A stretch of DNA of 42,968 nucleotides from a virus (lineage: Duplodnaviria > Caudoviricetes): IMG/VR virus record IMGVR_UViG_3300004213_000014, positions 1 through 42,968 of that record; one strand, given 5' to 3'. This document shows positions 226 through 25,178 of the stretch, one piece after another. Position 1 is the stretch's first letter, and each line of letters starts with the position of its first letter. Below the pieces are notes generated by a model that ran no database searches, was not told the origin of the DNA, and saw nothing but the letters and a program-made list of their open reading frames with translations. Position numbers and translations under genes: made by a program.

Positions 226-729
226 ATGCAAGAACTCATATCCCGTTCAGAAGCCCGTGCCAAGGGTCTACGCCGTTATTTTACGGGTCGACCTTGTCGG
301 CGTGGGCATGTCGCTGAACGTCTTGTGTCCACACAACACTGTCGAGAGTGTAGTAATCACCACTCTCGACAGCAGTATCAGCGCAGTCCTCGAACCAGAG
401 AGGAAGTGAAAGCGAAACGATTACTTCGCGATTATGGCCTCACAATGGATGAGTTCAACGCAATGATGGTCAGTCAGGCTGGGCAATGTTTAATATGCCC
501 GAGAAAGCTGGTCGAACCTTGTGTCGATCACTGTCACACCACCGGCCGTATTCGTGGCCTGCTATGCAGCAAATGCAACTCAGGTCTTGGGATGTTTGAT
601 GATGACCCAGAGCGGTTACTCCGGGCCATCGATTACCTCAAAGGTTCTTCAGGAGGAGGGCAACATGCTTGCTGTCGTCCAGCTCCAGAACGTCGAGCAG
701 GATCTGCACGTCGGCCTGATCCTGCTTGA
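226..729 (+). CDS. Endonuclease VII-family nuclease with N-terminal Zn module
   Basis: CLIC...[24 protein letters not shown] is the EndoVII signature. GGAGG RBS. The last 92 nt overlap the rIIA 3' end antisense. Confidence 0.88.
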
Positions 730-8659: not shown

Positions 8660-8679
8660 AACTGGGAAAATTCCCAGTT

Positions 8680-9003
8680 TTATGTCGTTGAGCGCGGCCT
8701 GGTGGTGGGCGTGGTGAGCGCGGCTTGGACAGCAGACAGCCGCTGCTGCGCCTCGCGATACAGGGCCGGGTAGGGTTCGTAAGCCTCGGCCTTGTGCAGC
8801 GCGATCTTGACGGCGTTGATCGACTTGCGATCGCCGCAGATCACGTTGCCGTCCCAGCTCAAGCCGGAGGACAGGTCGCGGTCGGGGTAGCAGATCGGGT
8901 TGCGCAGGCTCTCGCGCCACGCGGCGGACAGCTCTGCCATCTCGGGTGTCACCTGATGGGCTTGGCTCAGGATGGTTTGGACGGCGCGTTCGAGGCGGGT
9001 CAT
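8680..9003 (-). CDS. hypothetical protein
   Basis: ATGA-coupled to the upstream ORF; codon usage fits. Confidence 0.65.
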   Translation of the reverse strand: MTRLERAVQTILSQAHQVTPEMAELSAAWRESLRNPICYPDRDLSSGLSWDGNVICGDRKSINAVKIALHKAEAYEPYPALYREAQQRLSAVQAALTTPTTRPRSTT

Positions 9004-9185
9004 CGGATGCAGTAGCTTTCGCGGCAGTCGTACAGCTGGCCGACCATCTGGTCGGGCTGAAGAACGTGTGGGTTGCCTTCGAGGTCACGCAGGACATGGC
9101 CGCCGAGCGATCGCTCGTGGCCACATTCCAGCTTGATCGTGGTGGAGCGCCTGTTGCGCTTGGCTTCGGTGATGGCGCGGATCAT
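9000..9185 (-). CDS. small hypothetical protein (LECGH...CxxxxC, possible metal binding)
   Basis: ATGA overlaps at both ends. Confidence 0.6.
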   Translation of the reverse strand: MIRAITEAKRNRRSTTIKLECGHERSLGGHVLRDLEGNPHVLQPDQMVGQLYDCRESYCIR

Positions 9186-9685
9186 TGGTAGATCGGCACG
9201 AAGTCAGCGTAGCAGTCGTCATCATCCTCGTCGAAGCCCTCGGGCACACCCTTGGCGAGCATGTAGCGGATGCGCTTGGCCGCACCTTGCGGGGTGTTGT
9301 CGACGTCTGACCATGCCCCACCGAAGCACCAGCTGAATGCCTCGCCTTCGACGTCAAACACGCGCCCTTGATATGCGCCCCAGTCCATGTTGCCGGCTGG
9401 CGTGAAATCCTCGGGGATCGCGAGGAACCCCGCGGCCGGGCCGTGGCCGACAGCACAAGCGACAGCGCCGCACTTGCCGACGCCACCGTTCTCACGGGCG
9501 TACTTGATCTCGACTTCCTTGGCGGCTTCGGCCGCAGCATCGAGGGCGGCGAAATTGATCTCGGCCGCCTTGCGGATGCCGCGCACCTTCAGCTCTTCGA
9601 AGAAGACTTCCATCTCGAAGCCCTTATAGTCGGCGGGCAGGCCTTCGAGGTAGGTGGCGAGGCGCTTGAGGTTGTTACGGTTCAT
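9182..9685 (-). CDS. hypothetical protein
   Basis: AGGA RBS, start MNRNNLKRLA. CGAVACAVGH motif and acidic C-tail. Confidence 0.75.
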   Translation of the reverse strand: MNRNNLKRLATYLEGLPADYKGFEMEVFFEELKVRGIRKAAEINFAALDAAAEAAKEVEIKYARENGGVGKCGAVACAVGHGPAAGFLAIPEDFTPAGNMDWGAYQGRVFDVEGEAFSWCFGGAWSDVDNTPQGAAKRIRYMLAKGVPEGFDEDDDDCYADFVPIYQ

Positions 9686-10191
9686 GTCGTTGGTCCTGTT
9701 CTGCTGGTCACCCACGTCGCGCCCCACGCCCAGTAGCGGAGCGAGTTGCAGGCGTGCTCGATGACAATCGCGTTGCTGTGGCCCTGCGAGCCGGCGCTTG
9801 CGCAGGCCTGGACATGGGCCACGGCCGCGTCGTCGTCCTCGAAGATGGCGAGTTCGTCGAGGCGCTCGATGCCGGCGTCGAGGAAGGTCGAGTTACCGAC
9901 GAGGTTGAAGATGTCCCAGCCCTCGCTGTTGGCGAGTTCCTGATACTGGGAATTTTCCCACATCGTGCCCGCGCTCTGAAGCACGGCCCGCGCGACGGGC
10001 ACGGTGTAGTAGATGAGGGCAGGGCTGACGTGCATCTTGCACTCGGGTAGCCAGATGTCACCCTCATCGTTGAGGACGAGAGGCAGGCGAAGGCCGGTCA
10101 CGAGAACTGCGCCCGGAGCCACGCCATGCGCTCCTTGGGCGGCAGGCTCAGCCAGGGGGGCGCGCAGGTCGCGGTGCTGTTGGCAGGTCAT
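9682..10191 (-). CDS. hypothetical protein (possibly two fused modules; internal ATG at 9963)
   Basis: AAGGAG RBS. The internal MWENSQ is encoded by the repeated palindrome. Confidence 0.6.
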   Translation of the reverse strand: MTCQQHRDLRAPLAEPAAQGAHGVAPGAVLVTGLRLPLVLNDEGDIWLPECKMHVSPALIYYTVPVARAVLQSAGTMWENSQYQELANSEGWDIFNLVGNSTFLDAGIERLDELAIFEDDDAAVAHVQACASAGSQGHSNAIVIEHACNSLRYWAWGATWVTSRTGPTT

Positions 10192-10236
10192 GGGAAACTC
10201 CTTGAGTCAAAGATTTTGGGTGTGTACGATGGCAGG

Positions 10237-10719
10237 ATGGATGTGATCTCTCGCCGCGACGCCAAGGCACAGGGCCTCAAGTTCTACTTCACGGGCAAGC
10301 CGTGCAAGCAGGGTCATGTTGCTCCGCGATATACCAGCGGTGAGAGCTGCACCTTGTGCATCATTGCGAAGGCCAAACAGCATCGGCTGGAGGATCCCGA
10401 GGCGCATCGTGTCGCGCTTCGTAAACACCGGGCTGGTAATCTTGAGAAGATGCGCAAGACCCAGCGTGACTGGAACCGCAACAACCGACCCAAGGTTCGG
10501 GTGCATGAGGCCAAGCGGCGCGCGGCAAAGGCGCAGCGCGTTCTGCCGGGCCATGAGGCCGAGCTGGCGCGGATATACCGCGAGTGCCCGCCCGGCCATC
10601 ATGTCGATCACATTGTGCCGCTTCACCATCCTTGTGTCTGCGGTCTGCACGTTCCGTGGAACCTGCAATATCTGACCGAGGCCGAGAACTTGGCGAAGGG
10701 CAACCGCTGGGACGGTTAG
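10237..10719 (+). CDS. HNH endonuclease with N-terminal Zn module
   Basis: MDVISRRDAKAQGLKFYFTGKPCKQGH...CTLC and HVDHIVPL...CGLHVPWNLQYL...KGN. Confidence 0.9.
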   Translation: MDVISRRDAKAQGLKFYFTGKPCKQGHVAPRYTSGESCTLCIIAKAKQHRLEDPEAHRVALRKHRAGNLEKMRKTQRDWNRNNRPKVRVHEAKRRAAKAQRVLPGHEAELARIYRECPPGHHVDHIVPLHHPCVCGLHVPWNLQYLTEAENLAKGNRWDG

Positions 10720-10982
10720 AGCCGTCCCGAAAAGATCTTGGGCGTGCGCACCGCGGCGTTGATGGTCGCGGGATCGATCTCAACCTGAAACGCACGCTGT
10801 CGACCCAGACGCCGCGTCACCTCCGCGAGGACGAGGTGCGGATACTCAGCCTGCTCGATCAGGTCGCAGAACACCGTGCGGTGCTTCTGGCGCTCGGCGA
10901 CGGCGTGGTCGGGCAGGCGGCACTCGGCGCGGGCGTGGTGCAGGGCAACAGCGACGCGCAGGGCGGTGGAGATGTGCGGCAT
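10716..10982 (-). CDS. hypothetical protein
   Basis: AAGGA RBS. A palindrome copy lies just upstream. Confidence 0.65.
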   Translation of the reverse strand: MPHISTALRVAVALHHARAECRLPDHAVAERQKHRTVFCDLIEQAEYPHLVLAEVTRRLGRQRAFQVEIDPATINAAVRTPKIFSGRL

Positions 10983-11067
10983 GGGAGGTGTCCTTCTTGG
11001 TTGCGATCAACTTGGGAAAATTCCCAGATCATGGTTGATCGGCATGACCTGGAAGGGGGCGTGGTGG

Positions 11068-11397
11068 CTAGGGCAGCTGGCCGCGGGCTACGCGGTAGAG
11101 GGCGTTCAGCCCTTTCGAGCGGTCGCCGGTGCGGATGCCGCTATCGTTGGCGCTGTACAGGTCGTCGGTTTCGGTGCTGCCGATGGCCCGATACACGCCG
11201 TGATAGTCGGAGCTGTTGAGTTCGCAGGCGAGCCGGCCGACGGCGCAGAAGCAGTCCGCAAATACGCTGGTGGGCGGTACGGACGTGCCGTTGGCGGCCT
11301 CGGCCAACCGAAACCCGATGTGCTTGTCAGGGTTGGCCTTGAGCCAGTCTGCGGCGCGCTTGGCAGCAGCGCGTGTTTCAGGCGTGAAGTAGACCAC
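11068..11397 (-). CDS. hypothetical protein (CFCAVG motif)
   Basis: GTG start at 11397 with AAGGA RBS. Confidence 0.65.
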   Translation of the reverse strand: MVYFTPETRAAAKRAADWLKANPDKHIGFRLAEAANGTSVPPTSVFADCFCAVGRLACELNSSDYHGVYRAIGSTETDDLYSANDSGIRTGDRSKGLNALYRVARGQLP

Positions 11398-11590
11398 GGC
11401 GATGATCCTTCCTGCGGGGCTTGGAATTGTCGGTGCGGCGGTACACGGCGTTCTTCTCACGCTTGGACCACCAGCTCTTGACGCGGATCGGTTCACAGTT
11501 CGGGCCGGGCTGGCCGGACGGTGCGGGGATGGCGTCGATCTCGGCCTGCTGCTGGGCGAGATAGCGGGCGCGGTCATTCCAGAGGAACAT
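11378..11590 (-). CDS. hypothetical protein (70 aa)
   Basis: MFLWNDRAR..., with AAGGA RBS. Confidence 0.55.
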   Translation of the reverse strand: MFLWNDRARYLAQQQAEIDAIPAPSGQPGPNCEPIRVKSWWSKREKNAVYRRTDNSKPRRKDHRRGLLHA

Positions 11591-11592
11591 GG

Positions 11593-11880
11593 TCAGTTGA
11601 TCCTTGCTGCGAGGCGGTCGACGCGGATGTTCAGCGTGCGCTGGACCTGCGGATGCCAGACGTCGCCCTTGGCGTACTCGCGGGCGATCCGCTCGGCGCG
11701 GGTAAGCGCCCACCAGTTGTAGCGGTCGACGGCCGCGGCGGCGGCATGATACGCGAGCAGGATCGAGGACGGTGCGACGATCAAGCACCACGCGGCGTCC
11801 CAGTGCGACAGCACGCCGGTGGCGCACGCTACGGTGATGATCGTCAGGCAGATGCAAGCGAAGAAGGCGGCGCGGATCAT
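11593..11880 (-). CDS. small membrane protein
   Basis: Two hydrophobic segments; GGAG RBS. Confidence 0.65.
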   Translation of the reverse strand: MIRAAFFACICLTIITVACATGVLSHWDAAWCLIVAPSSILLAYHAAAAAVDRYNWWALTRAERIAREYAKGDVWHPQVQRTLNIRVDRLAARIN

Positions 11881-11957
11881 CGTGCGGCTCCATGTGAAGA
11901 TTTGGGAAAATTCCCAAGAGGTCGTCGGTGACGGTTCTCTGGGCGTGGTGGAGAGTG

Positions 11958-12035
11958 AGGGCGCGCCTATCGGGCAGGGCGTGCGTGCCCGTCAGGGCGC
12001 GCCTATCGGGCAGGGCGCGCCTATCGGGCAGGGCG
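11958..12035. repeat. 18-bp tandem repeat AGGGCGCGCCTATCGGGC (3 exact + 1 variant unit + partial), iteron-like
   Basis: Units start at 11958, 11976 (variant), 11994 and 12012. Confidence 0.9.
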
Positions 12036-12071
12036 TTGGCGTGGACCAGGCCACGTCGTTAGCGCCTAAAC

Positions 12072-12197
12072 GCTCCGTTTTTATCTAATTGCCGGGTAAC
12101 TCGTATATGTACCATATACTGTATATATTTATTCATCTGGCTACCAGATATATGAATAAATACATCTCTTTACCCGGCAATTAGATAAAAACGGAGC
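12072..12197. repeat. 28-bp perfect inverted repeat enclosing an AT-rich core with nested inverted repeats; putative replication origin
   Basis: GCTCCGTTTTTATCTAATTGCCGGGTAA (12072-12099) is the reverse complement of 12170-12197. Inner pair TATTTATTCAT/ATGAATAAATA. The origin role is inferred. Confidence 0.8.
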
Positions 12198-12272
12198 CTT
12201 ACTCGCCCAAGAACGCAGTGGAAAATTTGGGAAAATTCCCAATCTCACCGGCTGCGGCGCGCAACAGACCGG

Positions 12273-12656
12273 TCAATTACCGGCCTGGAGCACGCGAACG
12301 TGATAGCCCCGCGACCGCATCTGCCGGGCGTAGGTATCGGCATTGCGCCGCGACGGCTCACCATACCGGCTGCGACCGCCGGCACCGCCACCCGTGGCGT
12401 TCTCGACGTGAATATCCCACAAGATCGGCCCACCGCTGGCGTCAGGGTGCGATCGATAGACGATCAATTCGGGCAGGCTCTCGGATGGGTCAGGCGCGGC
12501 GGCGCGCAGCTGCCCCTCGATCCATCGGTTGTGGATCACGCGCTTGCGCTGGCGCTCGATACGCTCGGCTTCGAGTCGCGCGGCGGTGGCGAGAACCAGC
12601 GCGTCGCGGGCGCGCCGCTCAAGAGCGGCGGCCTCGACAACAATGTTGCGGCTCAC
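12273..12656 (-). CDS. hypothetical protein
   Basis: GTG start (MSRNIVVE...) overlaps the stop of the upstream micro-ORF (GTGA). Confidence 0.65.
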   Translation of the reverse strand: MSRNIVVEAAALERRARDALVLATAARLEAERIERQRKRVIHNRWIEGQLRAAAPDPSESLPELIVYRSHPDASGGPILWDIHVENATGGGAGGRSRYGEPSRRNADTYARQMRSRGYHVRVLQAGN

Positions 12657-12739
12657 AGGCCGTACTCGTCGAGCAGGGCGAGAATATCCTCGTCGGGTTC
12701 GGCGGTGTCGAGCGGATAGATTTCGGACAGGTCGGGCAC
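12653..12739 (-). CDS. 28-aa acidic micropeptide MPDLSEIYPLDTAEPDEDILALLDEYGL
   Basis: GGAGG RBS, GTG start, and stop coupled to the next start. Below the ORF-track cutoff. Confidence 0.6.
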   Translation of the reverse strand: MPDLSEIYPLDTAEPDEDILALLDEYGL

Positions 12740-12814
12740 GTTGGCCTCCGTTGGGAAAATTCCCAGCCGCGTCGCACTCGCGGCCGGGCATTGGCATATG
12801 GGACGAAGCGCGGC

Positions 12815-13465
12815 TTAGGCCGCCAGCTTCAGCTGCGACGTGGTGTAGGCGTCCATGCGGTCGGCGATCGCCTTGCGGAGAGCCGCGACCGTGTCGCTGG
12901 CGGCGAGGAAAGCCGCATCATCCATGCCAGCGATGATGAGCGCGGCTTTGTTCAGAATGTCCGCGTCGGACACCACGACACCGCCGGTCGGCTCGTTCGT
13001 GCCGGTGTTGGTTTCGGCTTCCTCGCTTGGGCCCACATCCTTGGCGGCGTCGGCGCGCATCTGGTCGGCGATCGCCACGGTGAGGGCACGCAGGCTCTTG
13101 GGCGCACCTTCGGCGTCGAACACGAACGCGGTGGCGATCTTGGTGAGCGCGTCATCGCCCTTGGCGTTCTCGTGCGCCTTGAGGATGCTCTCCACCGTCT
13201 TGCGGGTGGCGTCACCGCCGACGAAGTCGCGCAGGCCGGAGAGCTTGTCCACGGGCTTGCCGCTCTTGGCCTTCGGGTTCCCGAAGGAAGCGATCACGGT
13301 GGCGACCACCTTGTCGGGGGAGGCGGCACCGGTCATGAGGGCGGCGAGGATCGAACGTGCCATCGGCGTCGCCTTGTTCTCGGCAGTCACCGCGGCCGAA
13401 CGGAAAGCCTTGATCGTCTCGCCCATGTTGTTCGCGATAGGGCTCATGTCGGTCATATCATTCAC
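12815..13465 (-). CDS. hypothetical Ala-rich protein, first gene of leftward operon
   Basis: GGAG RBS and strongly biased codon usage. Confidence 0.8.
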   Translation of the reverse strand: MNDMTDMSPIANNMGETIKAFRSAAVTAENKATPMARSILAALMTGAASPDKVVATVIASFGNPKAKSGKPVDKLSGLRDFVGGDATRKTVESILKAHENAKGDDALTKIATAFVFDAEGAPKSLRALTVAIADQMRADAAKDVGPSEEAETNTGTNEPTGGVVVSDADILNKAALIIAGMDDAAFLAASDTVAALRKAIADRMDAYTTSQLKLAA

Positions 13466-13575
13466 TCCAAAAGGATTGGGAAAATTCCCAACATCCCAGC
13501 ATCATGCTGGTGGAAACCACTGGCGTTGAGCCAGTAGTTACCACCACCATGACAAGACGCATCGCACGCGCCCTG

Positions 13576-13888
13576 GAGCATCGTAGTGGAAATGGTGACG
13601 GGACTAATGCGCCCGCTACGTCGACCCCCGTTGTTCCGCTTTCGTCTCGCCTACGCCATACCCTTGCCAAAGGGGTTAGCCATGACTGCCCTACTCGATT
13701 GCCGGACGGCTTGCGCCTCACCCGGACCCCGGAAAACTCTCGTGTCACTCGTGTCACCACGCGGCGCCACATCCGGTTTGGACCCGGATGCGGCTTGTTG
13801 TGCCGCTTCATGTCCCCACAACGCAGGGGCTGTCCACCCCACGTCGCCAGACGTCACCCGTCACCCGGATAACCACGCTACGATGTTT
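13576..13888 (-). ncRNA. candidate ~310-nt structured RNA of unknown class
   Basis: Long-range closing helices 13579-13589/13873-13885 and 13594-13602/13857-13865, plus several internal hairpins. No credible ORF. Strand is inferred from context. Confidence 0.55.
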
Positions 13889-14094
13889 CGGCCGTGCGCT
13901 CGCCTAGCCGGGCTTGGTCCGGCATGTTGGGAATATTCCCAGTATGTTGGGGTAGGCACAATGTACCTACGCCTCACCCAAGGGGAGGACTTGGCCCTAG
14001 CCCCGGAGGGGAGGGCGGCGGGGAAAGCGTTTCCGCTGACCGCCCACCAACAATGGCAGAGGGGGTGAGGTAATCCAGCACAAGGCAGGAAGGG

Positions 14095-14107
14095 TAACAC
14101 GTTGATT
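14095..14107 (-). promoter_or_regulatory. IHF consensus site
   Basis: AATCAACGTGTTA matches WATCAANNNNTTR, with A-tracts on its 5' side. Confidence 0.5.
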
Positions 14108-14224
14108 TTCCTAGGTTTTTTGCCAGTATACTATGATAGTGGGCCGTGGAATTTCGCATAATTTTTCCAGTTTTTTGAAACTTTCACCCTTGTCCGCACA
14201 GTTTTCGCGCGATAATTATGAAGA

Positions 14225-14686
14225 ATGAACCGACTTCCGCTCGAAATTCGCTACCGGCGCGATAAAGCCCTGAAATTGGGCCACGCCACCTACATGGGCC
14301 GGGCCTGCAAGCACGGGCACGACGGTCGCCGTCGAACCGCCAGCGGCGTGTGTGTCGGCTGTCAGCAGGCCGACAAACGGAAGCGGAGCGGGCGATCTGT
14401 CGCTTGGAACCGTGAAAATCGCGCCGCCCGGCTGCTGACCAAGGCCAAATCCCGCGCTCAGGCGACCGGCCGCGCCTTTGACCTGGGCCTCGACGACATC
14501 ACCATTCCCGAAACGTGTCCTGTGCTCGGCATCCCGCTCGATCAGCCGAGCCTCGATCGCTTCGACAACAGCCTCGGGTATGTGAAGGGTAACGTGCGGG
14601 TGATCTCGCTGCGTGCCAACCGGCTGAAAGGCGACGCAACGGTCGAGGAAGTCGAGGCCATCCTTCGCTACATGCGCGGAGGATGA
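14225..14686 (+). CDS. HNH-like (betabetaalpha-Me) endonuclease with N-terminal Zn module
   Basis: ACKHGH...CVGC and CPVLG...SLDRFDNSLGYVKGNVRVISLRANRLK. Confidence 0.85.
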   Translation: MNRLPLEIRYRRDKALKLGHATYMGRACKHGHDGRRRTASGVCVGCQQADKRKRSGRSVAWNRENRAARLLTKAKSRAQATGRAFDLGLDDITIPETCPVLGIPLDQPSLDRFDNSLGYVKGNVRVISLRANRLKGDATVEEVEAILRYMRGG

Positions 14687-14698
14687 CCTCGAACCCGG

Positions 14699-17182
14699 TC
14701 ACTTTTCGGGCAAAACAGGGCCAACGACCTTCATCTTGATGGCGCGATGGCGCATCACACCGGTCGCGTCCTGATACGGCTCACATTCGTGGCCCAGCTC
14801 GCCCAGCATTTGCTGGAACCGCTCATAGGACACCGAAAAACCCCGACTGACGTCCTTCATGTAGAAAACATATTGGTCAAAGACCACGCGGGCGTCGACA
14901 TGGTCGGCTTTGTCCTGCGTCGGGCGGATTTTGTCGCTCGACTGCAGGAACGCGGCCACCGAGTTGTTCGAACGCAGCACCTGATTGATGCGAACCTGAT
15001 GCGACGAAGGCAGCGTGTAGTCGCGCTGCCGCTGCAGCCGGGCCAGACCCTGCACCGCCCATGCCGCGATCGCCTCGCGCTCCTCCGCGACGAGGATCTT
15101 GTGGAAGTCGACAATTTTCTCATGCGCCAGCACGATGCGATTGAAGTCGAGGATCAGCCAGCGCCGGACGAAACCGCCCGACGTGTCGCGCGACCGCGGC
15201 AGGAAGTTGGACCCGAACCAGTTTGCGGCGATCGGCCGGAACTCGAAAGCGTCCTTCCCCTTGAATTCGGTGTGCTGACCGGTCCCCTCGATCACCTCCT
15301 TGAAGGCGCGGCCGTCGATTGTCGCCTCCTCGGGCAGCTCGCCGCAGACGTTCAGCGTTTTGCCGATCATCGCCGCCAGCTGGAACCGCTCGTTCCACAG
15401 CGTCGGCGGCACCGAGCACTGCGCAGACGGCGGCATCATGGCCTTCAGCACCTCCAGCGCCTGCGTCTTGCCGGTGCCGGGCTTGCCGTGCAGCAGGATC
15501 GCGCGCTGATACGACGGAGCGATGCCGAACATCGTCGCCGCGAACGCCTCCTGCAGCGCGGCGACCTTGTCGGCATAGTCCTCGTCGTCGCCCCACGACT
15601 GCTCCAGATATTCCAACCACTTGTGCGCCTCGGCGGCGCGCTCGGGGATGTAGTTGAAAGGCAGCGTGAAGGTCTTGCCGTATTTCGGGCTGTGGTCGTG
15701 CAGCTGCAGGTTCGCGTCGAGAAACCCGTTCGCGAAGTTGATGCCGATCTCCATCTCGGTGCCAAGCGGCGCGCGCGCCACCTTCCCGACGGTCTTGGTG
15801 ATCGCCTGATAATCGTTGTGCCGGCGCGCCAGCGCGTTGCCCTTGATGCTCTCGGCGACCGCCATGTAGACGTCGTCCTCCTCGATCGCCTGATGGCACG
15901 AGCCGGACCACTGCCAGAACTTACCCTGCGCGAAGATCAGGTCGCCGCCGCGGCTCATTTCCTCATAGATCTGACGCGCGATCGCCTCGTGATCGGCCGC
16001 CTGCTCGCTGTCACCGCGGCGCGCTTCCTTGAACAGGCGCTTCAGGTCGGGCTTCGGCACGCTGACGCCCGACATCCGCTTGATGTTATCCTTCTCGATG
16101 AAGCTGGCGAACAGCATGTCGGAGAAGTTCTCGTCCTTGGCGAGCAGCGTCACGATCTCCTCGACGCGCGCGAGCGCCCAGTCGACGTCACCCGGCTGCT
16201 CCATCACCTTGGCCTCCAGCCATTCCTGCGCCTTGGTCACGGTCCACCGCTGCTGCTCGTTCTTCTTCGACATCTCGGCGATCGCCGGGTGCGCGCGCTG
16301 GTCATCAGTCAGGCCGGTGTCCCAGCCCTCGGGCAGGGTCTTGCCCTTCTCGACGTCCTTGAGCAGAAACTCGACCAGCTTCGCCACGCCCTTGTCAGGG
16401 TCCATATCGTCACCACCCGCGGTGTGCGAAGTGAAGTTCTCGACCCAATGCGACATGTGCTTCATCGCTTCGGCGAGCGTGAACTTGGCGTTCTTGTCGA
16501 TGCCCATGACGACGCGCGCCAGATAGCCGGCGTGCCGGACCATCTGGATGTCGCGCTCACCCTGCGGCACTACGTCGAGCGGCGCGCTGCGGCCGGACTG
16601 CGCGAGCGTAAACCCCTTGGTGCCGAGGATCGGCTCCAGCGCCTGGCGCAGGATGCGCTCGACGTCGAGCGGCAGCGGCTCGATCTTGTCCAGAACCTCG
16701 TACAGGTGGGTGTCCGAGACATAGGGCCGGCCGGTGTCAGGGTGGATCGATGGCGGCATGACCATCTGGTTGCCCGCGCCGAGGAACTCGACGATGCTCT
16801 CGTTGTCGCTGTTGCGCAGCTTGAAGTTCGGCTGACCCTGCCAGCGGTAGATCAGGCCCATGCCCTTCTTGCCGACGCGCACCCACGGCGACGCGGGGAG
16901 CGCGGCGCGGATCGCAGCGACCAGATCCTCGTCCTCGGTATCGATGTCGATCGCGCACAGACCCGAGGCTTTGCCAAAGGGCAGACCGATGTTCGACTGC
17001 GGGTACGACAGCAGCCAGCTGTGACGCATCGCCTCCGACGGCATCACGTCGCCGTACTGGGTCCACTCGGACAGAATCGGGGCCTTGCCCTTGCCCTTCG
17101 ACGGGCTGTCCCAACGCTTGAGGGGCATGACGGGGATGCCCGCTGCCCAGTACAACGGGGCGTGGTCGTGGAAAATGGACAT
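14699..17182 (-). CDS. bifunctional primase-polymerase fused to D5-like SF3 helicase
   Basis: NIGLPFG...CAIDID and VMPPSIHPDTG (Prim-Pol). GKPGTGKT Walker A, VCGE, FGSNFLP and GFVRRW (helicase). GGAG RBS at 17182. Confidence 0.92.
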   Translation of the reverse strand: MSIFHDHAPLYWAAGIPVMPLKRWDSPSKGKGKAPILSEWTQYGDVMPSEAMRHSWLLSYPQSNIGLPFGKASGLCAIDIDTEDEDLVAAIRAALPASPWVRVGKKGMGLIYRWQGQPNFKLRNSDNESIVEFLGAGNQMVMPPSIHPDTGRPYVSDTHLYEVLDKIEPLPLDVERILRQALEPILGTKGFTLAQSGRSAPLDVVPQGERDIQMVRHAGYLARVVMGIDKNAKFTLAEAMKHMSHWVENFTSHTAGGDDMDPDKGVAKLVEFLLKDVEKGKTLPEGWDTGLTDDQRAHPAIAEMSKKNEQQRWTVTKAQEWLEAKVMEQPGDVDWALARVEEIVTLLAKDENFSDMLFASFIEKDNIKRMSGVSVPKPDLKRLFKEARRGDSEQAADHEAIARQIYEEMSRGGDLIFAQGKFWQWSGSCHQAIEEDDVYMAVAESIKGNALARRHNDYQAITKTVGKVARAPLGTEMEIGINFANGFLDANLQLHDHSPKYGKTFTLPFNYIPERAAEAHKWLEYLEQSWGDDEDYADKVAALQEAFAATMFGIAPSYQRAILLHGKPGTGKTQALEVLKAMMPPSAQCSVPPTLWNERFQLAAMIGKTLNVCGELPEEATIDGRAFKEVIEGTGQHTEFKGKDAFEFRPIAANWFGSNFLPRSRDTSGGFVRRWLILDFNRIVLAHEKIVDFHKILVAEEREAIAAWAVQGLARLQRQRDYTLPSSHQVRINQVLRSNNSVAAFLQSSDKIRPTQDKADHVDARVVFDQYVFYMKDVSRGFSVSYERFQQMLGELGHECEPYQDATGVMRHRAIKMKVVGPVLPEK

Positions 17183-21266: not shown

Positions 21267-21845
21267 ATGGAAGAAACTGCTCTCGATCGCCGCCGTCGTC
21301 TCGCTCGCGAGAAGCAAGCCCGATATGTAGCCAAGCACCCTGACAGGGTGAAGAAGACACAGGCGGAATATTACGAGCGCAATCGTGAAGCGCGCCAAGC
21401 CGCGGCTCGTGAAGCGGCCAAGACGCGCGAATGGACGCCCGAGCGAAACGCATGGCAGAACGCGCATCGAGCAAAGAACCGCGAGGCGCAGCGGAGCTAT
21501 AATCGGGAGTACAAAGCCAAACGTCGGAAGGAAGACCCGCAGTTCGCAATAGCCGAACGGCTTCGCACCCGCCTTTGCCAAGTGCGTCCCGGTGCACCGG
21601 GTTCGGCTGTTCGCGATCTCGGTTGCAGTTTGTCCGAACTGATTGAGCATCTGGAGCGGCAATTTCAGCCGGGCATGACTTGGGACAACCGCGGCGCCTG
21701 GCACATTGACCACCGCCGGCCGCTTGCGTCCTTTGATCTTCTCGATCGAGTGCAGCTTTTGCAAGCCTGCCACTATACCAATCTCCAGCCGCTGTGGGCT
21801 TTCGATAACCTGTCGAAAGGCAGCAAAATGGTGGTCAGCGGTTGA
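21267..21845 (+). CDS. HNH endonuclease
   Basis: LGCS...GMTWDNRGAWHIDHRRPLASFDL...CHYTNLQPLWAFDNLSKG. TTGACA at 21232. Confidence 0.88.
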   Translation: MEETALDRRRRLAREKQARYVAKHPDRVKKTQAEYYERNREARQAAAREAAKTREWTPERNAWQNAHRAKNREAQRSYNREYKAKRRKEDPQFAIAERLRTRLCQVRPGAPGSAVRDLGCSLSELIEHLERQFQPGMTWDNRGAWHIDHRRPLASFDLLDRVQLLQACHYTNLQPLWAFDNLSKGSKMVVSG

Positions 21846-24836: not shown

Positions 24837-25178
24837 ATGTGCCAGAAGTGCTTCGTAAAACCGCAGTCGAAGCGCGATCGACGAACCTACCGGCCGCTTT
24901 GCTACGGCTGTCATACACGCCGACACGGCCTGCGGACCTCAGCCATAAAGAGCCGGCCCTACACGTCCGCGAAGGAGGACAAGTGCCGCCGGTGCGGCTT
25001 CGTTCCCGAGCATTCATGCCAGCTGGACGTCGATCATATCGACGAAGATCACAGCAATAACGACCCGGCCAACCTCCAAACCCTGTGCGCCAACTGCCAT
25101 CGTTTGAAGACCCGAGCAGCTCATCTGAAACAACCGATGTCACCACTGCCCACCGCTCTTCCCATTGATGGTCATTAG
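24837..25178 (+). CDS. HNH endonuclease
   Basis: CRRCG...LDVDHIDEDHSNNDPANLQTLCANCHRLKT. Confidence 0.88.
   Translation: MCQKCFVKPQSKRDRRTYRPLCYGCHTRRHGLRTSAIKSRPYTSAKEDKCRRCGFVPEHSCQLDVDHIDEDHSNNDPANLQTLCANCHRLKTRAAHLKQPMSPLPTALPIDGH

What the first reader, a model, noticed from the sequence alone, without database searches (positions are those of the whole stretch)
13576..13888. Candidate large structured ncRNA at the head of the early operon
Seen: an ORF-poor block whose ends pair over ~300 nt (CATCGTAG-TGG 13579-89 with CCA-CG-CTACGATG 13873-85; GGTGACGGG 13594-602 with CCCGTCACC 13857-65). Internal hairpins on the - strand include CCCC/GGGG, GCGGC/GCCGC, CATCCGG/CCGGATG and CCGG..GGC-GCAA-GCC..CCGG, and there is a tandem GTGACACGA. 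The block is bracketed by palindrome copies at 13477 and 13928. I cannot assign it to tRNA, tmRNA, RNase P, hammerhead or intron classes. Inference: a phage-encoded RNA or leader (antiterminator, sponge, anti-defence decoy or ribozyme) made at the start of infection.
Basis: partly seen in the sequence, partly recalled or inferred. Interest (0 to 1): 0.82.

Follow-up and report, generated by a model that had tools for sequence, protein, structure and literature searches.

The report
Orphan structured RNA in phage early slot
One branch of Seuss-like phages carries a 450-base insert, absent from its cousins, at the spot where their first early gene starts; mutations in related phages preserve its base pairs, so it is likely a folded non-coding RNA of an uncatalogued type, predicted to act early in infection by binding a host protein.

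Summary
The window is half of an 83-kb Seuss/JWF-like siphophage. Between two copies of the phage's 14-bp palindrome (13477, 13928) lies a 450-nt insert. In 11 relatives read at this spot, the first early gene starts there directly. Five other sequencing runs hold diverged copies, whole or in part. In four helices predicted from the window alone, 15 of 15 listed substitutions keep the pair, including four double changes and a matched deletion on both arms. All five strand-informative sites favour the minus strand. A 1-nt deletion shared by three runs breaks the overlapping ORFs. The closing helix holds. The second long-range pair is not supported: 13592-99 pairs with 13753-60. The structured unit extends to 13501. 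Folding energy alone is unremarkable (z -2.15, reached by 27 of 104 control windows), and the inner 150 nt remain unresolved. Rfam, ARAGORN and motif scans found no known class. No transcript data exist. Best reading: a stand-alone early ncRNA acting in trans as a protein decoy or scaffold (0.35). A cis-acting leader is the main rival.

The parts
14092..14110 (-). Family-wide motif (A-run then GTGTTACCC) that opens the early leader; inferred to lie just inside the right end of the terminal repeat
   Evidence: Present in L001, L002, L006, L007, L162, L165, L166. In Seuss the annotated 1,748-bp repeat ends about 30 nt upstream of a similar motif. The genome end is inferred.
13942..14091 (-). Ancestral early leader, collinear with the leaders of L006 and L007
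   Evidence: Alignment
13928..13941 (.). Upstream palindrome copy; in relatives the single copy is followed directly by SD and ATG. Its centre could serve as a -10 box, with TTGTGC 17 nt upstream (read by eye; below the threshold of the promoter scan)
   Evidence: not listed
13890..13923 (-). Two small 5' hairpins (13923-13907 and 13904-13890), predicted
   Evidence: the second is kept in X5 with a changed closing pair (loose end)
13579..13885 (-). Core domain closed by P1 (13885-78 with 13586-79); a five-way junction of P1, H2, H3, H4 and P5
   Evidence: variants
13853..13873 (-). H2 hairpin
   Evidence: Probability 0.91-0.94; the X5 deletion at 13863 falls in its loop
13812..13852 (-). H3 hairpin, loop GGACA; no listed change in X3 or X5, so no covariation evidence
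13761..13806 (-). H4: 5-bp and 11-bp stems with a 7-nt bulge; loop GUCCAAA could kiss the H3 loop (4 bp, untested)
   Evidence: Probability 1.0; 3 of 3 stem changes keep the pair and 3 changes fall in the bulge
13592..13760 (-). P5 (13760-53 with 13599-92) enclosing a 152-nt inner domain whose fold is unresolved; it holds the GCAA hairpin, the GTGACACGA tandem and the CCCUU/AAGGG hairpin
   Evidence: P5 probability 0.68-0.89; X3 has a substitution plus a 1-nt deletion on both arms and keeps 7 bp; X7 replaces 112 nt by 85
13553..13575 (-). H7 hairpin
   Evidence: Predicted; double change 13560/13568 in X3, X4, X5; G-U to A-U at 13571 in X3, X4, X5, X7
13501..13553 (-). H8, a 24-position stem with two mismatches and no U-tract; candidate processing or stability hairpin
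   Evidence: Local z -8.6; three double changes and one G-U to G-C in X3
13469..13497 (-). Downstream palindrome copy (13477-13490) extended into a hairpin followed by four U; candidate 3' end. Its arm 13477-97 is also complementary (21 nt, 90%) to 13921-41
   Evidence: not called by the terminator scan
12815..13456 (-). First early gene (213 aa, all-helical, no known family or fold); it has homologues in relatives that lack the RNA

Best explanation
The 450-nt insert between the two palindromes is likely a stand-alone non-coding RNA gene, predicted to be transcribed from the minus strand right after the phage DNA enters and to act in trans by binding and sequestering a host protein. SHOWN: the insert occupies the position where relatives start their first early gene; its outer helices are kept through compensatory changes; its reading frames are not kept. 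INFERRED: it is transcribed from the leader or from a promoter overlapping the 13928 palindrome. It is cut or terminated at H8 or at the 13477 hairpin, leaving a stable RNA of about 330-450 nt. It folds as a five-way junction with a distal domain. It moves as a cassette by recombination between palindromes, like the small protein genes around it. GUESSED: the role is host takeover or counter-defence, as a decoy or scaffold. No partner protein is identified.
For: Slot: motif-to-start distance is 644 nt in the window against 212-280 nt in six relatives computed (L006 is 212 to its SD-led start). Short single-palindrome leaders were also read by eye in L168, JWF and Lumi, and a short leader without the insert in Seuss. 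The leader is collinear up to the 13928 palindrome. Structure: 15 of 15 listed substitutions in H4, H7, H8 and P5 keep a canonical pair (against the pair table), where 117 of 564 random single changes would. Five strand-informative sites (13501, 13571, 13766, 13769, 13772) all favour the minus strand. Sequence constraint: X5 differs at 21 of 339 positions in 13540-13878 against about 40 of 303 in the flanks, which include coding DNA (Fisher p 0.003; approximate). Non-coding: a 1-nt deletion at 13725 in X3, X4 and X5; no homologue of the 117-aa ORF. Independence from the downstream gene: the gene keeps its ancestral palindrome-SD-start context (compare L168), and two stable hairpins separate it from the core.
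Against: No transcript, no ends and no binding partner are shown. Only five diverged copies are known, all as difference tables: one search printed 40 of 149 substitution rows and 12 of 31 indel rows, 34 of X4's 42 changes were not seen, and X4 and X5 have depth under 5. The copies are related, so the changes are not independent events. Folding energy is not exceptional for this genome. Predicted helices of the inner domain and the outermost extension of P1 are broken by variants. The strongest covariation lies in H7 and H8, which could be ordinary processing hairpins. The trans-acting role rests on position alone.
Confidence: 0.35

Rival explanations
1. Cis-acting leader: the RNA is the 5' part of the first early transcript and controls elongation or read-through into the early genes, either as a put-like antiterminator or as a two-state switch in which the 3' strand of P1 pairs instead with the 5' arm of H8.
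For: It sits first in the early operon on the same strand. The alternative helix 13589-83/13547-41 has probability 0.91 in the truncated fold and stays pairable with the 13585/13586 changes seen in X3, X4, X5 and X7. A hairpin with four U lies just before the SD of the first gene.
Against: Eleven relatives run the same early layout without it. H8 has no U-tract. The alternative helix faces G residues that accept C or U, so its retention is weak evidence. At over 300 nt it is far larger than HK022 put (size recalled, not from a call). No riboswitch family matched.
Confidence: 0.25
2. A patchwork: H7, H8 and the palindrome hairpin are processing or stability signals of the early mRNA, and the rest is a loosely folded spacer, perhaps left from a lost gene, with no function of its own.
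For: The core z-score is ordinary. Most double changes are in H7 and H8. The inner domain tolerates a 112-to-85-nt replacement.
Against: P5 is kept through matched changes on both arms 160 nt apart. P1 is kept in X5. All H4 stem changes are pair-compatible. The core is more conserved than its flanks.
Confidence: 0.15
3. A selfish or catalytic RNA element (an unknown ribozyme or ORF-less intron-like unit) inserted at the palindrome, the two copies being a target duplication, and removed from the transcript by self-cleavage or by RNase III cutting the 21-bp duplex between its ends.
For: Flanked by direct copies of a 14-bp site; the ends are complementary over 21 nt; multi-branched fold with GNRA loops; lineage-restricted.
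Against: Single copy in the window. No Rfam ribozyme or intron match. No hammerhead, group I, group II or RNase P core motif. A group I P7-like pairing found by eye loses its key G in X8. The palindrome flanks many ordinary early genes.
Confidence: 0.12
4. A DNA-level element (single-strand or cruciform structure used in ejection, replication or end processing near the genome end).
For: Inferred to lie a few hundred bases from the genome end; DNA-parameter folding gives z -3.3 for 13495-13927.
Against: G-U wobble changes on one strand only and GNRA loops fit RNA; relatives with the same end layout lack it.
Confidence: 0.05
5. One of the overlapping ORFs (117 aa on the minus strand, 122 or 160 aa on the plus, or a 10-aa peptide at 13683-13651) is the functional product.
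For: The 117-aa ORF has a purine-rich stretch before its ATG.
Against: A 1-nt deletion at 13725 in X3, X4 and X5, with further 1-nt indels in X3. No homologue or Pfam match. Not in the protein collection. The peptide's start codon is lost in X8.
Confidence: 0.03

Closest known systems
Large phage-encoded ncRNAs of unknown function: GOLLD, ROOL (bioRxiv 10.1101/2024.12.08.627333, search listing only) and phage K lnc001/lnc002 (PMC9241854, passages read)
   Same: [quoted passage not shown]
   Different: Shorter (core 307 nt, against 635 and 1,154 nt for the phage K RNAs). No tRNA neighbours in the window. No Rfam match. Narrow distribution. Expression not shown.
PeSL cassettes of T4-type phages RB49/phi1 (PMC2839356, abstract and one results section read)
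   Same: A repeated intergenic motif flanks accessory early genes and allows modules to be gained and lost by recombination.
   Different: Here the repeat is a perfect palindrome that differs from phage to phage and has no shared sigma-70 boxes; the cargo is an RNA, not an ORFan; mini-circles and promoter activity are not tested.
HK022 put RNA and Bacillus EAR antiterminator RNAs (recalled; a search gave no paper on them that I read)
   Same: Structured RNA directly after an early promoter, in only some members of a phage family.
   Different: Much larger and multi-branched; no sequence or Rfam similarity; no antitermination data.
Phage RNA decoys against host defence: viral sgRNAs (bioRxiv 10.64898/2026.06.01.729453, abstract read); Racr and pseudo-ToxI (recalled)
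   Same: Early phage ncRNA proposed to sequester a host protein.
   Different: No CRISPR-repeat, tracrRNA or antitoxin-repeat character was detected; several times longer; no target known.
RNase III signals of T7 and SPO1 early transcripts (recalled)
   Same: H8 is a long imperfect hairpin between units of an early transcript.
   Different: Explains only H8, not the core; cleavage not tested.

Membership tests
Any Rfam 15 family (incl. GOLLD, ROOL, OLE, riboswitches, ribozymes) | Covariance-model score at or above the gathering threshold | tested here: not met
   0 matches in the window; at E up to 10 only 8 sub-threshold hits, the best a miRNA model on H8 at 29 of 90 bits
tRNA / tmRNA (one- or two-piece) | tRNA-like domain with T-loop and CCA end; tag ORF | tested here: not met
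   ARAGORN 0 genes; RF01849 no match while the Caulobacter control rang; no T-loop motif
Group I intron | R and S core elements, P3-P7 pseudoknot with invariant G-C of the G-binding site | tested here: not met
   No R or S motif within 1-2 mismatches; the candidate P7 G (13681) is A in X8; not inside a gene
Group II intron | Domain V with catalytic triad | tested here: not met
   No D5 motif, no Rfam match
Hammerhead / twister and other small ribozymes | Conserved catalytic core | tested here: not met
   No hammerhead core; no Rfam hit; a twister-like look of 13924-13908 lacks the downstream core, judged by eye against a recalled consensus
RNase P RNA / SRP RNA | P4 consensus; helix-8 symmetric loop | tested here: not met
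   Motif scan negative; no Rfam match
Retron / DRT ncRNA | Adjacent reverse transcriptase | tested here: inconclusive
   Neighbours are an endonuclease and an unknown helical protein; the other half of the 83-kb genome could not be searched
put/EAR-type antiterminator RNA | Cis-acting suppression of downstream terminators | not testable with these tools
   Needs a transcription assay
PeSL cassette | Repeated motif flanking variable early modules | tested here: met
   8 of 10 palindrome copies lie in the early region; the insert is bounded by two copies and missing in relatives
PeSL cassette | Consensus sigma-70 promoter within each repeat | tested here: not met
   No promoter-like site called at the five copies in 11500-15000; no shared boxes upstream of the ten copies
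Structured ncRNA (general) | Pairs preserved by compensatory change | tested here: met
   15 of 15 listed stem substitutions in H4, H7, H8, P5; P1 kept in X5; counted by hand on partial tables, no R-scape test
Structured ncRNA (general) | Discrete transcript | not testable with these tools
   No RNA holder listed; X8 is probably DNA

The most novel reading that the evidence does not exclude
A new class of large phage RNA: a five-way-junction fold with a kissing-loop contact, carried as a swappable gene cassette in the first-injected terminal repeat. It works as an RNA-only effector, disarming a host defence or taking over a host RNA-binding machine before any phage protein is made.
Probability: 0.3. 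Interest if true: 0.8.

Novelty: new variant of a known kind. Interest (0 to 1): 0.55.

Why it matters
Phage early regions are read as rows of small host-takeover proteins. An RNA gene in the very first slot, with a fold matching no catalogued family, would be an RNA effector available sooner than any protein. Gene-centred searches would miss it. It gives a defined 330-450-nt construct for probing, cryo-EM and pull-downs. The phage-specific palindromes also mark the Seuss-like family as a second case of cassette shuffling.

Tried and rejected
Homologue searches that found nothing beyond the same phage: blastn against phages and plasmids; four DNA patterns in IMG/VR (matches did not extend; the scan stopped after 34 of 64 parts); one pattern in GTDB genomes; DNA search of 10 records, 9 of them related phages; single-sequence covariance models over 30 sources and 5 genomes (such models are insensitive). 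Protein-led locus searches with the first early gene gave only the same phage (L129, L130) or nothing. No RNA holder was listed, which says nothing about expression; X10 laid nothing and X6 covered only the leader. The first early protein folded confidently (pLDDT 86) but matched nothing in PDB or BFVD at E 0.001, so it gives no clue to the RNA. Literature searches showed no paper on an ncRNA in this phage group. The supplementary tables of PMC10690425 (candidate RNAs of 29-151 nt from IMG/VR) were not checked and could hold a sub-domain.

Full report
CONTEXT. The window is part of a siphophage genome: rIIA, primase, terminase, portal, capsid and tape measure are recognised. The primase's best matches are Caulobacter phage Seuss, Achromobacter phage JWF and Xylophilus phage Lumi at 35-40% identity. 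The same phage is on an 83,046-bp metagenome contig (L129). Seuss has a 1,748-bp terminal repeat holding its first early genes (PMC4591317, whole text read). A homologue of the first early protein is recorded from a Sphingomonas MAG, so an alphaproteobacterial host is likely but not shown.

OBSERVATION. All quoted motifs are present. The palindrome TGGGAAWWTTCCCA occurs 10 times against 0.11 expected, 8 of them in the early region. The 313-nt block folds with z -2.15 on the minus strand and -1.58 on the plus. That is not unusual here: 27 of 104 control windows of equal length reach -2.15 or lower (14 shuffles each, positions 100 to about 37,200). With the 3' hairpins included (13495-13927) z is -3.66, driven largely by H8. 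Energy therefore does not carry the case. Rfam gives no match at gathering threshold and only chance hits at E up to 10; ARAGORN finds nothing.

A CASSETTE IN A GENE SLOT. Relatives were fetched by primase (7 loci) and terminase (18 loci). Eight IMG/VR loci showed the early leader (L001, L002, L006, L007, L162, L165, L166, L168). L167 repeats L168. L003-L005 were uninformative, and the other terminase loci were screened by blastn and covariance model only, not read. In these eight, and in Seuss, JWF and Lumi, the order is: leader motif, 200-280 nt of leader, SD, first early gene; in all but Seuss, where I noted none, a single palindrome stands before the SD. In the window the distance is 644 nt and there are two palindromes. 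The window's leader aligns with those of L006 and L007 up to the 13928 copy, after which they start the gene. The first early gene itself is homologous in L006, L007 and L168. So 13927-13478 is an insert of 450 nt bounded by palindrome copies, 0 of 11 relatives have it, and the downstream gene keeps its ancestral context. None of the searches listed under Tried and rejected found the insert in another record.

NATURAL VARIANTS. The run search listed 11 holders, two of them possibly the source of this DNA. I laid 7 of the 9 others. Five cover the block in whole or part: X3 (13300-14125, 87 differences), X5 (13300-13941, 61), X4 (13517-13858, 42), X7 (two pieces) and X8 (13639-13722). X6 covers only the leader and X10 gave nothing. 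These are difference tables, not sequences. One search printed 40 of 149 substitution rows and 12 of 31 indel rows; X4 and X5 are below depth 5. I compared the listed changes by hand with helices predicted from the window alone.

H8 (13553-13501): X3 changes both partners at 13516/13538, 13519/13535 and 13520/13534, turns a G-U into G-C at 13501, and changes one loop base. H7 (13575-13553): double change 13560/13568 in X3, X4 and X5, and G-U to A-U at 13571 in four runs. H4: 13766 (G-C to G-U), 13769 (G-U to G-C), 13772 (U-A to U-G), plus three changes in the 7-nt bulge. P5 (13760-53 with 13599-92): X3 carries a substitution and a 1-nt deletion on each arm (13756/13757 and 13595/13596), and seven pairs remain. 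In these four helices 15 of 15 substitutions keep a canonical pair. The random rate is 117 of 564 for any change and 106 of 188 for transitions (that table included one mis-set 3-pair helix and two mismatches). P1: 13582, 13585 and 13586 change in four runs. The partner arm is read in full only for X5 (loose end), where six Watson-Crick pairs form in a shifted register. H2: the X5 deletion lies in the loop. Five sites are G-U on the minus strand but A-C on the plus in one allele; all favour a minus-strand RNA, the sense of the early genes.

RESULTS AGAINST. Two predicted helices of the inner domain and the outer extension of P1 are broken by variants, X7 replaces 112 nt of that domain by 85, and the GTGACACGA tandem is not conserved. 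H3 shows no listed change, so it has no covariation evidence. The copies are close relatives, so shared changes are single events. No formal covariation statistic was possible.

NOT CODING. A 1-nt deletion at 13725 is shared by X3, X4 and X5, and X3 has five more listed 1-nt deletions in the block. The 117-aa ORF has no homologue, none of three overlapping ORFs has a Pfam match, and the two looked up are not in the protein collection. X5 differs at 21 of 339 positions in 13540-13878 against about 40 of 303 in the flanks (p 0.003; the two counts come from separate alignments).

HOW IT MOST LIKELY WORKS. Shown: position, strand bias of the pairing, outer architecture, absence in cousins. Inferred: transcription begins in the leader or at a promoter overlapping the 13928 palindrome (a -35/-10 pair read by eye, not called). 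Two small 5' hairpins and H7/H8 protect the ends. The RNA is released by termination at the 13477 hairpin with its four U, or by RNase III in H8 or in the 21-bp duplex the two ends can form. The core is a five-way junction in which the H3 and H4 loops could kiss; both loops show no listed change. Because the element behaves like the protein-gene cassettes around it and cousins express the same early genes without it, I favour a trans-acting product over a cis leader. For the first slot of an early region the likeliest job is to bind a host protein in takeover or counter-defence. That last step is a guess from position (0.35). My confidence that the block is a functional structured RNA of some kind is about 0.75-0.8. 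The cis model remains open because the 3' strand of P1 can pair instead with the 5' arm of H8 in all alleles seen.

COMPARISON WITH KNOWN SYSTEMS. It works like, at most, the large phage ncRNAs of unknown function (phage K lnc001/lnc002, PMC9241854, passages read; GOLLD and ROOL, listing only). Its carriage resembles PeSL-mediated shuffling (PMC2839356, abstract and one section read), but the repeats here lack shared promoter boxes. It fails the membership tests for tRNA/tmRNA, group I and II introns, hammerhead, RNase P and SRP (the motif patterns were recalled). The published survey of viral structured RNAs covers 29-151-nt motifs from IMG/VR (PMC10690425, passages read, supplements not checked), where I found no copy of this element. 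Six literature searches showed nothing on an ncRNA in Seuss-like phages.

VERDICT. A real, lineage-restricted, minus-strand structured RNA cassette of uncatalogued type, with a corrected fold and extended boundaries (13927-13470). Function is inferred from position only. Novelty: new variant of a known kind. Interest 0.55; 0.8 if it proves to be an RNA-only early effector.

Noticed in passing
window 12069-12200 and 11957-12035: A 31-bp, 97% inverted repeat around an AT-rich core (z about -9) followed by four 18-bp tandem copies; about 2 kb from the inferred genome end, so a candidate origin or left edge of the terminal repeat.
   Followed up: no
window 8663-13941, 29554, 38818; L001, L002, L006, L007, L162, L165, L166, L168, L142 (JWF), L143 (Lumi): Each Seuss-like phage has its own 14-17-bp palindrome before and after the first early gene, some copies inside ORFs and some at the tip of terminator-like hairpins. 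Exact copies within a genome and a different sequence per lineage suggest an operator for a co-evolving phage protein; L006 lies in a provirus.
   Followed up: partly
window 8422, 8707, 10931, 11057, 11941: Five exact copies of GGGCGTGGTG, all on one strand in the early region; three lie 30-40 nt upstream (minus strand) of a palindrome copy.
   Followed up: no
window 12815-13456 and homologous slots in L001, L002, L006, L162, L165, Seuss: The first early protein ends in two alanines in most relatives even where the rest is unrelated, like a ClpXP degradation tag (recalled); the window's protein has a confident all-helical model with no structural match.
   Followed up: partly
window 226-729, 14225-14686, 21267-21845, 24837-25178: Four free-standing endonuclease VII/HNH-type genes in 25 kb, one of them next to the inferred genome end and opposed to the primase.
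   Followed up: no
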